In this document: piece by piece, positions 2-62,989 of the stretch
Layout of the letters: each line of letters begins with the position of its first letter
Position numbering within the stretch: position 1 is the first letter of the stretch
Origin: Nannocystis bainbridge
GTDB lineage: Bacteria > Myxococcota_A > Polyangia > Nannocystales > Nannocystaceae
Reading direction: 5' to 3'
Assembly: GCF_028368995.1 (NCBI RefSeq)
Contig: NZ_JAQNDL010000002.1
Location: forward strand, 1,408,001 to 1,472,000
Length of the DNA: 64,000 nt
Notes under the pieces: model-generated
What the model saw: the letters and a program-made list of their open reading frames with translations, nothing else
Databases searched by the model: none
What the model was told of the DNA's origin: nothing
Program-made: the position numbers and the translations under genes

Positions 2-550
2 AGCGGGACCACGGCGCTGCCGGCGAGCGGGCCGATCGCGGTGCCGACCGGGACGTACGCGCCGCCGAGCCTCGGCGTGGGATCGTCTAGCTTTTTGGCC
101 ATGTGCCTCGAGACATGTCGCAAGGGACCGGTCCCGTTGAGCGCGACCGACCAGGCGACCTGCCGCCTGACCTGCGAGAACTCGGCGAGCGTGGTCGACG
201 TGGCGCTCGATGCGGTGCCGGCGGTGTGGTTCGCGGCCGCACCAGCGCCGACGGTGATGACGGCGCCGCGACCTTCCCCGGTGAAGGTGACGGCGACGCC
301 GACCGGGACGCCGAGCCCGCCGCGACCCGTGTCGATGGGGACGGCCGCGGCAGGCTCGTGCGAGGCGGCGCGCTCGACCTGCGAGGGGGCGTGCTCGAAG
401 GTGCAGGCGCAGTGCGAACGCGGGTGCGGCAAGCAGAAGGTCGAGACGGACCGCGAGACCTGCAAGCTCGACTGCGGCGAGAACCTCGGGCTGTGCTCGG
501 CCGACTGCACCGGGGCACACGCGAGCTGCGTGAACGGCCGGAGCCGCTGA
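2..550 (+). CDS. 5'-partial Cys-rich protein (CxxxC helical repeats, Pro/Thr linker)
   Basis: Frame is open from the window start to TGA at 548-550; repeated CxxxC motifs (CEGACSKVQAQCERGC...CKLDCGENLGLCSADC); GC3-biased codons. Confidence 0.7.
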   Translation, partial: SGTTALPASGPIAVPTGTYAPPSLGVGSSSFLAMCLETCRKGPVPLSATDQATCRLTCENSASVVDVALDAVPAVWFAAAPAPTVMTAPRPSPVKVTATPTGTPSPPRPVSMGTAAAGSCEAARSTCEGACSKVQAQCERGCGKQKVETDRETCKLDCGENLGLCSADCTGAHASCVNGRSR

Positions 551-572
551 GGGAGGCGGCGAGCGCTGTGCC

Positions 573-1556
573 TCAGCTGCGGGGGCTGGGGAGCGGGCGG
601 GCGGCGAGGTCGAGCAGGGCGAGGCGCAGGGTCTCGCCGACAGCACCGAGGCTGCGGGCGTCGAGCTTGTCGCGGGTGTCGGCGTGGGTGTGCCAGGCCG
701 GGTAGTCGTAGTCGATGAGCAGGATCGAGGGCACGCCGGCCTCGTCGAGCGGGACGTGGTCATCGAGCAGCGGCACGGCCAGCGGGGCGGCGTCGAAGGC
801 CGTGAAGCCGTGCGCCTGTCCGATCGACCAGATCCGGTCGATGAGGGCCGGGTGCTGGGCCAGGCTGGCGAGGTCGGGCTGGACCCGCAGATCGCGGTCG
901 CCGACCATGTCGAGGACGACGCCGAACTCCGCGCGAGCGACCTGGGGGAAGCGACCCTGGAGGACCTCCGTGGCCAGCGCGCGCGAGCCGGCGAGGTACG
1001 GGCCGACGTCGGGGCGGCCGAGCTCCTCGCCGTCGAACAGGATGACGGTGACGCCGACGTCGGGCGGGAGCTGGCGGACGAGCAGGGGCACGAGCTCGAG
1101 CACGACGGCGAGGCCGCTGGTGCCGTCGTTGGCGCCGACGATCGGCTGCTCGCGGCGCGCGGGATCGGGGTCGGACTCGGCCCACGGGCGGGTGTCGAAG
1201 TGGGTGGCGAGGATGAACCGGCGTGGCGCGTCGGGGCGCACGTGGCCGAGCAGCGTGGTCATGGCGAAGCTGACGCCGGTCTGTGGATCGGCGCCGCGAT
1301 GGTCGAGGCGATCGATCACCGTCGCGCCCGCCGTCTGCAGGTCCGCGGCGAGGGCCTCGATGGCTCCCGCGCGCCGCGCGTCGCCGAGAGCTCGCGGGTA
1401 GCGGTCGAGGAGGAGGTCGACGCGCGCGAGCGCGGCCGCGCCGGAGAACGGCTCGCCGGTGTCGCCGCTGGCGGCCAGGCCGGAGGCCGACGCGCCCGGA
1501 GGACGGCCGCAGGCCACGAGGAGGGCGGCGAGCGCGAGGACGCTGCGAGCGGGCAT
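573..1556 (-). CDS. M28 family peptidase / glutaminyl-cyclase-like lipoprotein
   Basis: Lipobox LLVAC; motifs HFDTRPWA, GANDGTSG, FDGEE, DMVGD, DDH, WHTHAD; ATG at 1556 preferred over the longer track ORF. Confidence 0.88.
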   Translation of the reverse strand: MPARSVLALAALLVACGRPPGASASGLAASGDTGEPFSGAAALARVDLLLDRYPRALGDARRAGAIEALAADLQTAGATVIDRLDHRGADPQTGVSFAMTTLLGHVRPDAPRRFILATHFDTRPWAESDPDPARREQPIVGANDGTSGLAVVLELVPLLVRQLPPDVGVTVILFDGEELGRPDVGPYLAGSRALATEVLQGRFPQVARAEFGVVLDMVGDRDLRVQPDLASLAQHPALIDRIWSIGQAHGFTAFDAAPLAVPLLDDHVPLDEAGVPSILLIDYDYPAWHTHADTRDKLDARSLGAVGETLRLALLDLAARPLPSPRS

Positions 1557-1672
1557 ACCTGGCCCCTGGCATGCCCTGCGGCGGCGGCGGGTGCAAGCGG
1601 AAAAAACGCCGGTGGTGCGGACGCTGGGCGGCTGCGCGGGGTGGACCGGGGGCCTCAGTGCACGATTCTGTC

Positions 1673-60590: not shown

Positions 60591-60740
60591 CGCGACCGCG
60601 TCCGGACGGCGTCCTCCGCGAGGGCATGCAGCAGGGGGCGCGTCGCTTGCTCAGCCGGAGCCGCCATTCGCCCGTCTGCGGCGGACGGGCGGTGATCTGG
60701 GCACTGGACGCCGGGGCCCGGGGGCGCCTATAACCGGCCT

Positions 60741-62141
60741 GTGCTTCGCTGCGCGCTGATCGTCGCCCTGGCCGCACCGCCGGCCGCCGCCGGTCAGGGC
60801 GCGTCGCCGGTCGCCTGGGGCCCGCTGCCGGGGCAGGGGGCGCCGGCCGGCGAAGGTGTGAAGGGACAGGCCCCTTCGGACATGTCGCCCGAGACAGGTT
60901 CTTCGGGACATGTCGAAACGGACAGTCCCGTGGCCGCCGGGCCCGAACCTGCGCCCGCGCCGGTCGAGCCGCTGGGTCCGACTGGTCCAGCGCCGTCGCT
61001 GGTCCCGCCGCCCGAGCCCGGCGAGGCGACGCTCGAGCTGTCCGGCGCGGGGCAGGGCGGGCAGGTCGTCGTGACCTCCCCGCGCGGCAAGCTGCTCGGC
61101 GCCTACGCCGTCGGCCCCGGGCAGACGATCCTGCTGCGCGGGGCGCCCGGCGAGTATGTGGTGCGCAGCCCGGACGCGCCGCACGGGTTGGTGGTGCCGG
61201 TGGTCGAGCGCACGCACGTGCAGATCGGGCCGTCGGGGCTCGCGGTGGTGCGTGACGAGGGCCCGACGCCAGGGCCCGTGGTGCGGATCGGGCGGACCGC
61301 GGCCGCGCGCGACGGCAACTGGCGCCGACCGGTCTCGCCGATCCTGTCCGCGCTGGTGCCGGGCCTCGGGCAGATGGTCAACCGCGAGTACGCGCGCGGG
61401 GCCGGGTTCTTGCTCGGGGCCGTGTCGCTCGGCGCGGGCGCTCTCGGGCTCGCGCTCACCCGCGACCGGTCCGACGCCGCGACCGCGGGCGCCCACGGCC
61501 GCACGTTCGCCGCCGACGTGGTCGGTGCGGCCGGGCTCGGGCTTTTGACCGGCGGGCTGCACCTCCTCTACATGGCGCAGGTGATGGACGCCTACGCCGG
61601 CGCGATCGGCAAGCGCTCGCCGCGGCCGCACAGCCGCCACAAGGTCTCGCTCGAGCTGCGCCGCATGGCGACCGTGGGCATGCGCGCCGGCGATCCGGCC
61701 GCGCAGCTGTACGCCGACTGGAACGTCGGCGTGCTCGGTCAGGTCGCGCCGCGCCTGAGCGTCGGCCTGACCGACCTCGGCCTCAAGTTCGGCCCCGGGC
61801 GCGCGGCGCTGCAGGGCGGGCCGCGGCTGCAGTACCGCGTGCTCGAGCGCGGCCGCGTGTGGCTGTCGCTGGCCGCCGGCGCGATCGTCCAGGGCGCGTT
61901 CGCCAGCGGCTCGCCGCCGGTCGTGCCCGAGGGCGACAAGCAGCCGCGCACGGCGGTGGTCGCCGCCGTGCCGTACGGCCAGCTCGACCTGCGGCTGTTC
62001 ATCCTCGATCGCTGGTCGATCGACATCGTCCCGCGGATCAGCGCCCCGCTCGGCGCCGCCCGCTACTACCGGGGCGACGGCGCGATCCCCAAGCAAGCGG
62101 TCACGCTCGAGCTCGGCACCGGCGTGGGGGTGTATTTCTAA
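60741..62141 (+). CDS. Hypothetical exported protein, possibly with a C-terminal beta-barrel
   Basis: Signal-like N-terminus; SALVPGLGQ membrane motif; alternating beta strands ending in a C-terminal Phe (GVGVYF). Confidence 0.7.
   Translation: MLRCALIVALAAPPAAAGQGASPVAWGPLPGQGAPAGEGVKGQAPSDMSPETGSSGHVETDSPVAAGPEPAPAPVEPLGPTGPAPSLVPPPEPGEATLELSGAGQGGQVVVTSPRGKLLGAYAVGPGQTILLRGAPGEYVVRSPDAPHGLVVPVVERTHVQIGPSGLAVVRDEGPTPGPVVRIGRTAAARDGNWRRPVSPILSALVPGLGQMVNREYARGAGFLLGAVSLGAGALGLALTRDRSDAATAGAHGRTFAADVVGAAGLGLLTGGLHLLYMAQVMDAYAGAIGKRSPRPHSRHKVSLELRRMATVGMRAGDPAAQLYADWNVGVLGQVAPRLSVGLTDLGLKFGPGRAALQGGPRLQYRVLERGRVWLSLAAGAIVQGAFASGSPPVVPEGDKQPRTAVVAAVPYGQLDLRLFILDRWSIDIVPRISAPLGAARYYRGDGAIPKQAVTLELGTGVGVYF
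60862..60930. repeat. 14-bp-period array inside a CDS linker
   Basis: GACA at 60865, 60879, 60893, 60907, 60921. Confidence 0.88.
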
Positions 62142-62989
62142 TGCTGGCCTTCGGGACATGTCGTTCGGGACACTGGCTCAGGGGACATGCCCTCAAGGCC
62201 ATGTCACTGACGCTCGCGCTGGCGGCCGGCTGCGTGTTCGGCTACCGCAGCGAGGCCGAGGTCGAGGCGACCTGGCCGCTGACCGAGGTGCAGGCGGTGC
62301 GGGTCGCCCTGCCGGACACGCCGCTGACGGTGGTCGGCGACCCGATGGCGACCGGCCTCGAGCTGCGCGGCGAGTGGCGGGCGGCCGGCGGCAGCAAGAA
62401 GGTGGCCAGGGCCAACGCCCGCACGCCGCAGCTGGTGTTCGACGTGACCGGCGGGTTCGCCCGGCTCGGCGCGGTGGTGCCGCTGGCGGTCGATGACCAG
62501 GTCGATCTCGAGGTCGAGGAGATCCGGCTGCCGCCCACGCTCGACCTCGAGCTGCAGACGGGGCTCGGCGACGTCGACGTCGTCGGTGTGCGCGGCAACA
62601 TCGGCGTCGACGTCGACATCGGCGACGTCGACATCGAGGGTGGCGACGGCGGGGTGGCGGTGCGCACCGGCGAGGGCCGCGTGCGCGTCGAGTCGGCCGG
62701 CAACCTGGACCTGCGCACCCGCCACGGCACCGTCGAGGTGTGGCAGGCGGGCGCGGGCGGCAACGACGTGGTCGTCCGCGCCACCGGCGACGTGCGCGTG
62801 TGGCTGCGCTCCGACGCCGACCTGGACCTCGACCTCGCGGGCGATCAGATCCGCGTGCAGACAGGCACCGTGTCGACGATCACCAGCGGCTCGTTCCGCC
62901 GCGCGGTCGGCGGCGGGCACGTGAAGATCTGGCTCGACGCCGGCCCGGGCCGGATCGAGGTCCGCCTCGGCGAGCCCGAGACGCCGTGA
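62141..62989 (+). CDS. DUF4097-like beta-strand-repeat lipoprotein
   Basis: TAATG overlap (alternative ATG at 62201); LAAGC lipobox; T-x-x-G-x-V repeats. Confidence 0.75.
   Translation: MLAFGTCRSGHWLRGHALKAMSLTLALAAGCVFGYRSEAEVEATWPLTEVQAVRVALPDTPLTVVGDPMATGLELRGEWRAAGGSKKVARANARTPQLVFDVTGGFARLGAVVPLAVDDQVDLEVEEIRLPPTLDLELQTGLGDVDVVGVRGNIGVDVDIGDVDIEGGDGGVAVRTGEGRVRVESAGNLDLRTRHGTVEVWQAGAGGNDVVVRATGDVRVWLRSDADLDLDLAGDQIRVQTGTVSTITSGSFRRAVGGGHVKIWLDAGPGRIEVRLGEPETP

What the first reader, a model, noticed from the sequence alone, without database searches (positions are those of the whole stretch)
83..62207. Window-wide family of 14-bp palindromic units (TGTCC-N4-GGACA) forming phased arrays
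Seen: isolated near-perfect 14-mers at 24621, 26699, 43086, 45130, 45352, 46307 and 46749. The same unit is stacked head to tail, giving GGACATGTCC junctions every 14 bp, at about 1675, 3553, 6126, 16485, 21936, 25031, 31743, 41471, 59384, 60862 and 62139. That is more than 20 loci in 64 kb, intergenic and intragenic. Units diverge in sequence while the spacing is almost always kept, unlike a recent slippage minisatellite. Inference: iterated sites for a dimeric DNA-binding protein that binds cooperatively (a chromosome-organising or nucleoid system), or a self-propagating repeat. I do not recognise it as parS, REP, HIP1, dif or CRISPR, and I cannot check the literature.
Basis: partly seen in the sequence, partly recalled or inferred. 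Interest (0 to 1): 0.92.

Follow-up and report, generated by a model that had tools for sequence, protein, structure and literature searches.

The report
Phased 14-bp palindrome lattice in Nannocystis
A soil myxobacterium carries about twelve thousand copies of a short palindromic DNA word, laid out in exact 14-base steps mostly just after the ends of genes and kept by natural selection, which looks like a docking lattice for a still unknown DNA-binding protein.

Summary
TGTCC-N4-GGACA (equivalently the decamer GGRCATGYCC every 14 bp) occurs 36 times in the window against 1.9 expected. My caller finds about 12,100 units at about 6,000 loci in the 11-Mb genome. CATG-CATG distances peak only at 14, 28, 42, 56 and 70 bp.

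The family is limited to the genus Nannocystis and part of one sister genus.

- **Location.** Half of all convergent intergenic spacers hold an array, usually starting within about 6 bp of a stop codon. Promoter-side spacers largely lack them.
- **Spacing.** It is absolute: N4 1987, against N3 16 and N5 5. The N4 letters are free.
- **Selection.** Inside genes, perfect units are 35-fold above codon-shuffled expectation. Their A/T letters at third codon positions are identical in three species in 92% of cases, against 34% for other such positions.
- **Not mobile.** I found no RAYT transposase, no defined ends and no copies shared between loci.
- **Not structure-driven.** Base-pair covariation is weak and there is no G·U bias.

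Best reading (about 0.45): iterated operators for an abundant dimeric double-stranded-DNA-binding protein that forms boundary complexes at gene ends. No binder was identified. A hairpin or terminator role for the arrays is not excluded.

The parts
1669..1805 (.). Two short arrays (3 + 2 units) in an intergenic spacer
   Evidence: CATG spacing is 14 at 1681/1695 and at 1776/1790.
3559..3775 (.). Longest array of the window, about 15 units. It lies in the convergent spacer between a Rieske-domain ORF (3118-3540 +) and an M13 peptidase ORF (3793-5904 -).
   Evidence: (period 14, 8.3 copies at 3613-3730). CATG spacing 28,14,14,16,14,14,28,14,14,14. The spacer cannot be aligned with 4 relatives although the flanking genes are 85-95% identical.
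6132..6270 (.). Array of 9 units ending 3 bp from the stop of ORF 6273-7574(-)
   Evidence: The last unit (6257) is kept in 3 of 4 relatives with a different N4.
16491..16560 (.). Array of 5 units filling the 82-bp convergent spacer, 7 bp from each stop codon
   Evidence: In the three-species alignment the CATG register is kept and the N4 differ (IG 181). As RNA it folds into two hairpins of 13 and 10 pairs, -50.7 kcal/mol, z -7.6.
18668..18681 (.). Perfect single unit inside the VIT/VWA ORF 17694-21041(-)
   Evidence: Identical in 4 of 4 relatives.
21943..21978 (.). Short period-14 array of the CAGG-junction variant, inside ORF 21273-22604(+) by my gene caller
   Evidence: period 14, 2.7 copies; 21965 GGACAGGTCC.
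24621..24634 (.). Perfect single unit overlapping the stop of ORF 24627-25475(-)
   Evidence: Identical in 4 of 4 relatives.
25037..25078 (.). Three degenerate units (CCTG-junction variant) inside the HTTM-domain ORF
   Evidence: Unit 25051 is identical in 4 of 4 relatives.
26699..26712 (.). Perfect single unit, intergenic
   Evidence: (0-1 mismatches in 4 of 4 relatives).
31735..31790 (.). Array of 4 units overlapping the start of ORF 31762-32496(+)
   Evidence: Arms kept and N4 differ in 4 of 4 relatives (unit 31763).
41477..41546 (.). Array of 5 units starting 8 bp after the stop of the glutamyl-tRNA synthetase ORF (40027-41469 +), in a convergent spacer
   Evidence: Three-species alignment (IG 191). 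RNA fold -49.8 kcal/mol.
43086..43099 (.). Perfect single unit, intergenic
   Evidence: perfect arms in 4 of 4 relatives, one N4 change.
44472..44485 (.). Perfect single unit inside ORF 43127-44983(-)
45130..45365 (.). Cluster of units (45130-45157, 45192-45219, 45352-45365) in a long spacer that cannot be aligned with relatives
46307..46320 (.). Perfect single unit at the 3' end of the MazG ORF 46302-47114(-)
   Evidence: 0-1 arm mismatches in each of 4 relatives, N4 varies.
46749..46762 (.). Perfect single unit inside the MazG ORF
59390..59473 (.). Units (59390-59431 and the perfect 59460-59473) inside the YbeY-domain ORF 58249-59697(+)
60855..60924 (.). Array of 5 units, intergenic, ending 6 bp before ORF 60930-62141(+)
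62145..62201 (.). Array of 4 units between ORFs 60930-62141(+) and 62201-62989(+)

Best explanation
The element is a lineage-specific lattice of half-sites. The unit is (G-A-S-M)TGTCC-N4-GGACA(K-S-T-C). When units abut they share a CATG, giving decamers GGRCATGYCC every 14 bp.

Shown: both the letters of the arms and the exact N4/N0 spacing are held by selection, while the N4 letters are free.

Inferred: the unit is an operator of 5-N4-5 geometry for an abundant dimeric protein that binds double-stranded DNA. Dimers would sit side by side along arrays, one per 14 bp, so three dimers span four helical turns.

Also inferred: arrays are packed directly after stop codons, above all between convergent genes. 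There the protein-DNA complex would act as a two-way gene-end boundary, either a block to read-through transcription or a topological barrier. Single units inside genes would be weaker, non-cooperative sites of the same protein, as for a sequence-specific nucleoid protein.

Arrays appear to grow and shrink in place by duplication of 14- or 42-bp steps, not by transposition.
For: **Abundance and lattice.**
- 1987 perfect units and 956 perfect decamers genome-wide. The next best scrambled palindrome of the same composition has 139, and the median is 7.5.
- About 12,145 units at 5,997 loci, against a few hundred for scrambled controls.
- Spacing counts: N3 16, N4 1987, N5 5; N0 956, N1 11.

**Sequence rather than pairing is constrained.**
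- Within-unit pair 2-11: C-G 390 against 335 expected, and A·C is not depleted (947 against 958).
- Flank pair -1/+14 in 609 isolated intergenic units is complementary in 309, against about 272 expected.
- In the transcribed strand, G·U-type and A·C-type single deviations are equally common: 315 against 273 in tandem spacers, 315 against 391 in coding sequence.
- A at the first and T at the last N4 position are avoided symmetrically, as for an extended half-site.

**Selection.**
- Coding sequences hold 795 perfect units against 22.8 after synonymous-codon shuffling, spread evenly along genes.
- Third-codon identity between two other species is 0.954 in arms (n=410), 0.849 in flanks (n=1852) and 0.760 in N4 (n=125).
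- A/T third positions inside arms are identical in three species in 92% (n=125), against 34% (n=5808) elsewhere.
- In convergent spacers the CATG register is kept across three species while the N4 differ.
- Of 16 anchored convergent spacers with an array here, 12 have one in both relatives.

**Not mobile.**
- PF01797 in 0 of 11 genomes of the genus; the control search rings in 6 of 14 named genomes.
- No conserved array termini.
- 17 of 3372 32-mers shared between loci; the ones listed lie in segmental duplications.
- Only 72 long repeated intervals in the genome.

**Position.**
- Units per kb: convergent spacers 12.25, tandem about 3.9, divergent 1.13.
- 49.9% of 1374 convergent spacers carry an array of 2 or more units, against 9.4% of 1473 divergent spacers.
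- The nearer array edge is a median 6 bp from a stop codon.
Against: - No binding protein was found. The 16 strongest arrays in divergent spacers flank 32 unrelated genes, with no recurring DNA-binding family.
- The arrays also fold into very stable hairpins as single strands (-43 to -51 kcal/mol, z -5.4 to -7.6).
- Convergent spacers without any unit have equally strong generic hairpins: median best 44-nt window -23.1 against -24.2 kcal/mol, with divergent spacers at -20.8. A hairpin or terminator role for arrays therefore cannot be excluded.
- Adjacent decamers are slightly more complementary than random: 6.38 against 5.91 of 10, and perfect in 3.3% against 1.1%.
- A 14-bp step puts neighbouring dimers 120 degrees apart, so the assumed side-by-side contact is not obvious.
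- The N4 diverge faster than neighbouring sequence, which simple 'free spacer' neutrality does not predict.
- Only 10 of 74 isolated and 24 of 128 arrayed intergenic loci could be aligned in both relatives.
- All gene contexts rest on my own crude gene caller.
- The 3' bias could reflect tolerance rather than function.
Confidence: 0.45

Rival explanations
1. Hairpin elements acting in RNA or single-stranded DNA. Adjacent decamers pair into 10-13-bp stems with 4-nt loops and act as two-way transcription terminators or 3' mRNA stabilisers, as REP/BIME elements do in enterobacteria. Sequence uniformity would come from common descent or from a hairpin-specific factor.
For: - Strong predicted hairpins on both strands.
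- Arrays start right after stop codons and fill convergent spacers.
- In tandem spacers they lie near the upstream stop: median 47 bp, against 183 bp to the next start.
- Convergent spacers without units carry generic hairpins of equal strength, so hairpins seem to be wanted there.
- Canonical terminators with a T-run are at chance level in the first 20 kb of the window: 7 found against 4.9 expected.
- There is a small excess of complementarity between neighbouring decamers.
Against: - There is no G·U over A·C preference in the transcribed strand.
- Covariation is weak.
- A hairpin needs complementarity, not one fixed word with CATG at 90-99%.
- Linkers between hairpins have no reason to be exactly 4 nt, yet 13- and 15-bp steps are at background.
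- 795 perfect units lie evenly inside genes under synonymous-site constraint.
- No Rfam family matches.
Confidence: 0.2
2. A REP-like selfish repeat spread by an unrecognised enzyme, for example a single-copy domesticated nuclease or recombinase acting at CATG. It would accumulate where insertions are tolerated.
For: - It is genus-limited, and copy number differs widely between species: 7-532 two-decamer matches (up to 2 mismatches) in the other genomes of the genus against 848 here. In the sister genus, matches to a one-and-a-half-unit pattern run from 1 to 82 per genome.
- The tolerance gradient runs convergent > tandem > divergent > coding.
- Array length varies fast between species whose coding DNA is 85-95% identical.
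- There is some local duplication: adjacent N4 identical in 3.4% against 1.3%, and 42-bp higher-order repeats occur.
Against: - No Y1/RAYT transposase in 0 of 11 genomes.
- No termini or target duplications.
- No multi-unit copies shared between loci.
- The three IS110 copies are not inserted in units.
- Old copies should decay neutrally, but arms are 3-fold more conserved than flanks at third codon positions, and rare A/T third positions are kept in 92%.
- Indel variants of the spacing are essentially absent.
Confidence: 0.12
3. A self-recognition tag driven by biased processing of own DNA, analogous to DNA uptake sequences (DUS/USS) or Chi. A receptor or nuclease prefers DNA bearing the word, so the word accumulates wherever it is tolerated.
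For: - About 1 unit per kb, in coding and non-coding DNA.
- Clade-specific.
- Even distribution along the chromosome, with a few poor 100-kb bins that could be recent imports.
- Apparent purifying selection everywhere.
- From recall: inverted DUS pairs at gene ends are known in Neisseria.
Against: - Isolated half-sites are not enriched. GGACA occurs 11,418 times in all, close to what composition predicts (my arithmetic); only correctly spaced pairs are enriched.
- Tandem lattices of up to 10-15 units and strict 14-bp phasing are not expected from uptake bias.
- No receptor is known, and this could not be tested here.
Confidence: 0.07
4. An epigenetic or restriction-linked site. RCATGY would be the target of a methyltransferase, and arrays would be clusters read by a methylation-sensitive binder.
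For: CATG is the most conserved core: C .99, A .95, T .90, G .97.
Against: - The only family tested, D12-class adenine methyltransferase PF02086, is present in 58 of 61 genomes of the family whether or not they have the motif.
- The flanks GG/CC and the N4 spacing are constrained too.
- CATG as such is not depleted: 39,940 copies.
Confidence: 0.04
5. Chance, base composition, codon usage or a recent slippage minisatellite.
For: None beyond a minority of arrays with near-identical units (for example C3:1085845).
Against: - Dinucleotide shuffles.
- Scrambled palindromes.
- Synonymous-codon shuffles, 795 against 22.8.
- N4 are nearly random between neighbours.
- The family is present in 10 of 10 other genomes of the genus.
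Confidence: 0.01

Closest known systems
REP / BIME elements of enterobacteria and pseudomonads
   Same: Hundreds to thousands of short palindromic units, single or clustered. They show a bias for 3' ends and for spacers between convergent genes. They are bound by host proteins (IHF, DNA gyrase, Pol I) and affect mRNA stability (passages of PMC3184786).
   Different: - No RAYT transposase in 0 of 11 genomes.
- The unit is 14 bp, against 20-40 bp (recalled).
- Units overlap head to tail on a strict lattice.
- Half of the isolated units lie inside genes and are under synonymous-site constraint.
- There is little pairing covariation.
Neisseria dRS3 repeats and NIME arrays
   Same: A short inverted repeat with a free spacer, at high copy, forming intergenic arrays.
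   Different: In Neisseria the dRS3 units flank 50-150-bp repeat blocks and serve as integration sites for a phage recombinase. Here units abut directly, and no recombinase link was seen; the IS110 copies are not in units.
DNA uptake sequences (Neisseria DUS, Pasteurellaceae USS) (recalled)
   Same: A clade-specific word at about 1 per kb, in genes and spacers. Inverted pairs occur at gene ends. It is conserved at orthologous places.
   Different: Uptake words are asymmetric and act singly. Here only correctly spaced inverted pairs are enriched, and they form phased tandem lattices.
Tandem operators of cooperative dimeric repressors: MetJ metboxes, omega heptads, ParR centromere repeats; and the 5-N4-5 geometry of FNR-type boxes (recalled)
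   Same: Contiguous short symmetric units with strict spacing and sequence-free spacers. Each is bound by one dimer, and occupancy rises with the number of units.
   Different: Those systems have a handful of sites per replicon. Here there are about 6,000 loci, mostly at gene 3' ends rather than promoters, and no protein is assigned.
CdbA, the sequence-specific nucleoid protein of Myxococcus xanthus
   Same: A myxobacterial nucleoid protein with a defined motif, sites in genes and spacers, and about 7000 monomers per cell (passages of PMC7156744).
   Different: Its motif is a GC-rich direct repeat separated by 4 bp, with 569 ChIP peaks. It is not a CATG-centred palindrome lattice. Whether Nannocystis has CdbA was not tested.
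Cyanobacterial HIP1 and STRR repeats (recalled)
   Same: HIP1 is an over-represented palindromic word in genes and spacers with no known mobiliser. STRR are short tandem repeats at many loci.
   Different: HIP1 is an 8-mer without phasing. STRR units are near-identical within an array. Here the units differ in N4 while the register is exact.

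Membership tests
REP/BIME with RAYT | A REP-associated tyrosine transposase (Y1_Tnp, PF01797) in the genome, flanked by the repeats | tested here: not met
   0 of 11 genomes of the genus match at E <= 0.001. The same search rings in 6 of 14 control genomes.
REP/BIME with RAYT | Imperfect palindrome whose stem is kept by compensatory change | tested here: not met
   C-G 390 against 335 expected; A·C 947 against 958. 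Flank pair complementary in 309 of 609. No G·U bias.
REP/BIME with RAYT | Extragenic, at 3' ends, enriched between convergent genes | tested here: inconclusive
   The convergent bias is met (12.25 against 1.13 units per kb). However, 54.6% of 2944 isolated units lie wholly inside called genes.
MITE | Defined length, terminal inverted repeats, target-site duplication, many near-identical copies | tested here: not met
   No conserved flank beyond the unit in 835 arrays. 17 of 3372 32-mers are shared between loci; the ones listed lie in segmental duplications.
Slippage minisatellite / STRR-like tandem repeat | Units within an array are near-identical | tested here: not met
   Adjacent N4 are identical in 3.4% of 4635 pairs, against 1.3% for random pairs.
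CRISPR | Identical repeats of about 24-48 bp separated by unique spacers of similar length (recalled definition) | tested here: not met
   The period is 14 bp with a 4-bp variable part.
Intrinsic (Rho-independent) terminator | GC-rich hairpin followed by a T-run | tested here: not met
   7 terminator-like sites in window 1-20000 against 4.9 expected. Only one (6158-6175) touches an array. Hairpins without a T-run are present.
DNA uptake sequence (DUS/USS) | A single asymmetric word enriched on its own; a receptor-dependent uptake bias | tested here: not met
   Only spaced inverted pairs are enriched. The total for the half-site GGACA, 11,418, is near the composition expectation. Uptake bias is not testable here.
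Tandem operator array of a cooperative dimeric DNA-binding protein | Symmetric half-sites at fixed spacing, with a sequence-free spacer | tested here: met
   N4 1987 against N3 16 and N5 5.
Tandem operator array of a cooperative dimeric DNA-binding protein | An identified protein that binds the sites | not testable with these tools
   The search among genes next to promoter-side arrays gave no candidate.
Rfam RNA families | A match at the gathering score | tested here: not met
   The only match in the window is one tRNA at 63220-63304.

The most novel reading that the evidence does not exclude
Nannocystis has a sequence-addressed chromatin-like layer. An abundant dimeric protein polymerises on 14-bp-phased operators, three dimers per four helical turns. 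It caps the 3' ends of genes and occupies about half of all convergent gene pairs. It would act as a protein-based two-way insulator or terminator. Thousands of weaker sites inside genes constrain even synonymous codon choice.
Probability: 0.3. Interest if true: 0.85.

Novelty: new variant of a known kind. Interest (0 to 1): 0.68.

Why it matters
Short dispersed palindromes such as REP, BIME and DUS are known, but each has a known driver: a transposase, or an uptake bias. Here about 1.5% of an 11-Mb genome is a strictly phased lattice with no recognisable mobiliser. There is clear purifying selection on both letters and spacing, reaching into synonymous sites of genes.

If a dedicated binder exists, it would be a new kind of gene-end boundary system in bacteria. 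It would also give a handle on how very GC-rich genomes that lack T-run terminators end transcription between convergent genes.

Practically, the word marks Nannocystis DNA in metagenomes. It flags gene ends for annotation. It is also a ready bait for a pull-down experiment.

Tried and rejected
- **Genes next to promoter-side arrays.** Only 42 arrays of 3 or more units lie in divergent spacers. The 32 genes flanking the top 16 are unrelated, so no candidate binder emerged.
- **P53 DNA-binding domain.** The decamer has the form of a p53 half-site (recalled; one search lists only p53 papers). There is no match in the genome even at E <= 1.
- **IS110 as a repeat-targeting element.** Three identical copies exist, none inserted in a unit.
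- **D12 adenine methyltransferase.** Present in 58 of 61 family genomes, with no correlation to the motif.
- **Other 'dialects' in neighbouring genera.** 200-kb samples of four genomes show no alternative over-represented 5-N4-5 or decamer palindrome with 14-bp phasing.
- **Viral contigs.** 14 single hits among IMG/VR contigs, at roughly the chance level by my estimate.
- **RNA evidence.** The run search returned only metagenome runs kept as contigs; one held 0.83 of the sampled words and all the others less than half. I did not lay reads, so nothing can be said about transcript ends.
- **Earlier findings of this scan.** None.
- **Literature.** Five searches turned up no description of this repeat:
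  - Nannocystis + repeat + palindromic
  - the decamer itself
  - myxobacteria + 'repetitive extragenic palindromic'
  - Nannocystis + genome + intergenic + repeats
  - convergent genes + palindromic + tandem + intergenic repeat + high GC
  Subscription journals and supplements are not covered.
- **CdbA.** Its motif is described as a GC-rich direct repeat, not this palindrome (passages only; the logo is in a figure I could not see).

Full report
**What is there.** In the window, TGTCCNNNNGGACA with up to one mismatch occurs 36 times against 1.94 expected from dinucleotide shuffles. GGACATGTCC occurs 34 times against 1.84. Tandem Repeats Finder reports period-14 arrays at 3613-3730, 16500-16564, 21943-21978, 31744-31781 and 41474-41534. 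The window lies in an 11.05-Mb genome of 5 contigs and 71.5% G+C. Genome-wide there are:
- 1987 perfect 14-mers and 956 perfect decamers; the best scrambled palindrome of equal composition has 139 and the median is 7.5;
- about 12,145 units at 5,997 loci by my caller, with arrays of up to 10 called units. That is about 170 kb, or 1.5% of the genome.

CATG-CATG distances peak at 14 (3736), 28 (2073), 42 (1586), 56 (751) and 70 (383). Distances 13 (72) and 15 (262) are at background, and control tetramers show only the codon period.

**Anatomy.**
- The logo over 835 arrays is GG-R-CATG-Y-CC followed by four nearly free bases. CATG is the best-kept part: C .99, A .95, T .90, G .97.
- No conserved sequence lies outside the array ends.
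- Isolated perfect units carry three to four further semi-conserved bases on each side. The half-site is therefore about nine bases long. A 'single' is two facing half-sites separated by N4.
- Of the perfect decamers, 760 of 956 have at least one correctly spaced neighbouring half-site.
- Spacing is absolute. TGTCC-Nx-GGACA gives 16, 1987 and 5 for x = 3, 4, 5. GGACA-Nx-TGTCC gives 956 and 11 for x = 0, 1.
- The N4 are close to random between neighbours: identical in 3.4% of 4635 pairs, against 1.3% for random pairs.
- There is a small excess at i+3, and some arrays are visible 42-bp higher-order repeats.

**Where it lies.** I used a crude gene caller of my own: codon log-odds, 8263 genes, 85% coding.
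- Unit density is 12.25 per kb in convergent spacers, about 3.9 in tandem spacers and 1.13 in divergent spacers.
- Of 1374 convergent spacers, 59.5% hold a unit, 49.9% an array of two or more and 39.8% an array of three or more. Of 1473 divergent spacers the figures are 17.9%, 9.4% and 2.9%.
- In tandem spacers, arrays sit near the upstream stop codon: median 47 bp, against 183 bp to the next start.
- In convergent spacers the nearer array edge is a median 6 bp from a stop codon. The window's array at 16491-16560 fills its 82-bp spacer, 7 bp from each stop.
- Density along the contigs is about 110 units per 100 kb with no origin- or terminus-limited pattern. A few bins are poor.

**Who has it.**
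- The two-decamer pattern (up to 2 mismatches) is found in 10 of 10 other genomes of the same genus, at 7 to 532 matches. In 14 other genera of the family and 16 genera of the class it is not found, apart from 2 matches in one genome.
- An exact scan of one genome from each of 185,579 species returned 78 stretches. All but three (one each from a Gammaproteobacteria genome, Diplocloster and a Terriglobales genome) are from records titled Nannocystis, Nannocystaceae or Myxococcales.
- A wider family sample shows the motif also in one sister genus, very unevenly: 82 and 17 matches in two genomes, and 1-3 in five others.
- A 200-kb sample of the richest of these has mostly isolated units.

**Is it selected?**
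- Synonymous-codon shuffling of 7321 confident genes gives 22.8 perfect units against 795 observed. The observed units are spread evenly along genes.
- I fetched syntenic DNA from four relatives. Flanking genes are 80-95% identical.
- Many units sit at orthologous places with the arms kept and the N4 changed.
- In 53 intergenic units aligned without gaps in three species, identity between any two of the three species is 1.00 at the G and C of CATG, 0.79-0.91 for GG/CC and 0.53-0.74 in N4. Other aligned intergenic DNA is at 0.87-0.88.
- To avoid ascertainment bias I compared two other species with each other. Third-codon identity is 0.954 in arms (n=410), 0.849 in flanks (n=1852) and 0.760 in N4 (n=125).
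- The sharpest test uses third-codon positions that are A or T in this genome, which are disfavoured at 72% G+C. They are identical in all three species in 92% of 125 cases inside arms, against 34% of 5808 elsewhere.
- Of 16 anchored convergent spacers with an array here, 12 have one in both relatives and 2 in one relative. Unit numbers differ, and the register of CATG is retained.
- Limits: only 10 of 74 isolated and 24 of 128 arrayed intergenic loci could be aligned in both relatives, and register slips may inflate N4 divergence within arrays.

**Is it mobile?**
- No Y1/RAYT transposase in this genome or in any of 11 genomes of the genus, while the control genomes ring.
- The genome has few long repeats: 72 intervals.
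- An IS110 element in three copies is not inserted in units.
- Only 17 of 3372 two-unit 32-mers recur at another locus; the ones listed lie within large segmental duplications at contig ends.
- Arrays therefore appear not to be copied between loci. They change in place.

**Structure or sequence?**
- As single strands the arrays fold very well: -43 to -51 kcal/mol for about 82-126 nt, z -5.4 to -7.6. Any palindrome lattice must do so.
- The pairing signal is weak. Within-unit C-G is 390 against 335 expected, with A·C not depleted.
- Neighbouring decamers match 6.38 against 5.91 of 10.
- The two alternative flank bases of isolated units pair in 309 of 609 cases, against about 272 expected.
- In the transcribed strand, wobble-compatible and A·C-type deviations are equally frequent: 315 against 273, and 315 against 391.
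- These results argue that the letters themselves are read, symmetrically, on duplex DNA.
- Convergent spacers without units have generic hairpins just as strong as those with arrays, and stronger than divergent spacers. So hairpins seem to be wanted at convergent gene ends, and arrays may serve that need as well.

**Most likely mechanism.**
- Shown: a symmetric word at fixed spacing, under selection, at gene ends and inside genes, and not mobile.
- Inferred: it is an operator for an abundant dimeric DNA-binding protein (5-N4-5 geometry). Contiguous units load contiguous dimers, and arrays act as two-way boundaries after stop codons.
- The rivals are a hairpin-based terminator or REP-like element, a selfish repeat with an unknown enzyme, an uptake- or Chi-like self tag, and a methylation site. 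They are weighed in their own sections.
- I could not name a binder.

**Comparison and novelty.**
- It works most like REP/BIME clusters and like tandem operators of cooperative repressors.
- It fails the membership tests for REP-RAYT, MITE, minisatellite, CRISPR, intrinsic terminator and uptake sequence.
- No Rfam family matches.
- Five literature searches and two look-ups of this scan's earlier findings gave no prior description. The held library lacks most subscription journals.
- I rate it a new variant of a known kind, dispersed short palindromic repeats, with unusual features: overlapping palindromes on a strict 14-bp lattice, no mobiliser, and synonymous-site constraint.

Noticed in passing
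genome-wide; window 6216, 16533: The decamer GGRCATGYCC has the form of the p53 half-site RRRCWWGYYY (recalled). All listed papers containing the exact decamer that bear on DNA recognition concern p53. No P53 domain is found in the genome. I take this as coincidence.
   Followed up: partly
G000 C3:1347891-1348044, C3:1816596-1816721, C1:638587-638740: Some arrays are 42-bp higher-order repeats: three units repeated as a block. 42 bp is four helical turns, or 14 codons.
   Followed up: no
units genome-wide: The N4 spacers diverge faster between species than neighbouring sequence, even at third codon positions (0.760 against 0.849). This is unexplained.
   Followed up: partly
window 37166-37959: There are 60-bp tandem repeats (4.5 copies), then 15/30/9-bp repeats inside ORF 37440-38852(-). 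Its lysine/alanine-rich tail gives a weak histone-H1-like (HC2) hit below the Pfam cut-off.
   Followed up: no
window 43895-44446: A 147-bp repeat, about 3.4 copies, inside ORF 43127-44983(-), which has no Pfam family.
   Followed up: no
window 48569-48789: Tandem repeats of 40/20 bp (3.1 copies at 96% for the 40-bp unit) in the spacer between the PhoH-like ORF and ORF 48952-50283.
   Followed up: no
window 58258-58993: Long acidic (Asp/Glu) repeat region, with periods of 36-99 bp, in ORF 58249-59697(+), which also carries a YbeY endoribonuclease domain.
   Followed up: no
window 63220-63304: One tRNA gene, the only Rfam match in the window.
   Followed up: no
G000 C3 near 1.5 Mb: GC skew changes from positive to negative just to the right of the window (C3:1408001-1472000). 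The window therefore lies near a replication landmark, and unit density is not reduced there.
   Followed up: no
G000 C1:555903-557318, C2:2315113-2316538, C3:876248-877671; C2:1697259-1698386: An IS110-family element is present in three identical copies. A group II intron reverse transcriptase ORF was also seen.
   Followed up: partly
G000 C1:4515656-4536530 and C2:3021502-3033751: Contig ends share long duplicated stretches, either an assembly overlap or a real large repeat.
   Followed up: no
window 21936, 25031, 31743, 59384: A sub-variant of the junction, GGACAGGTCC / GGACCTGTCC instead of GGACATGTCC, is common. About half of isolated units have C rather than A just outside the arm.
   Followed up: partly
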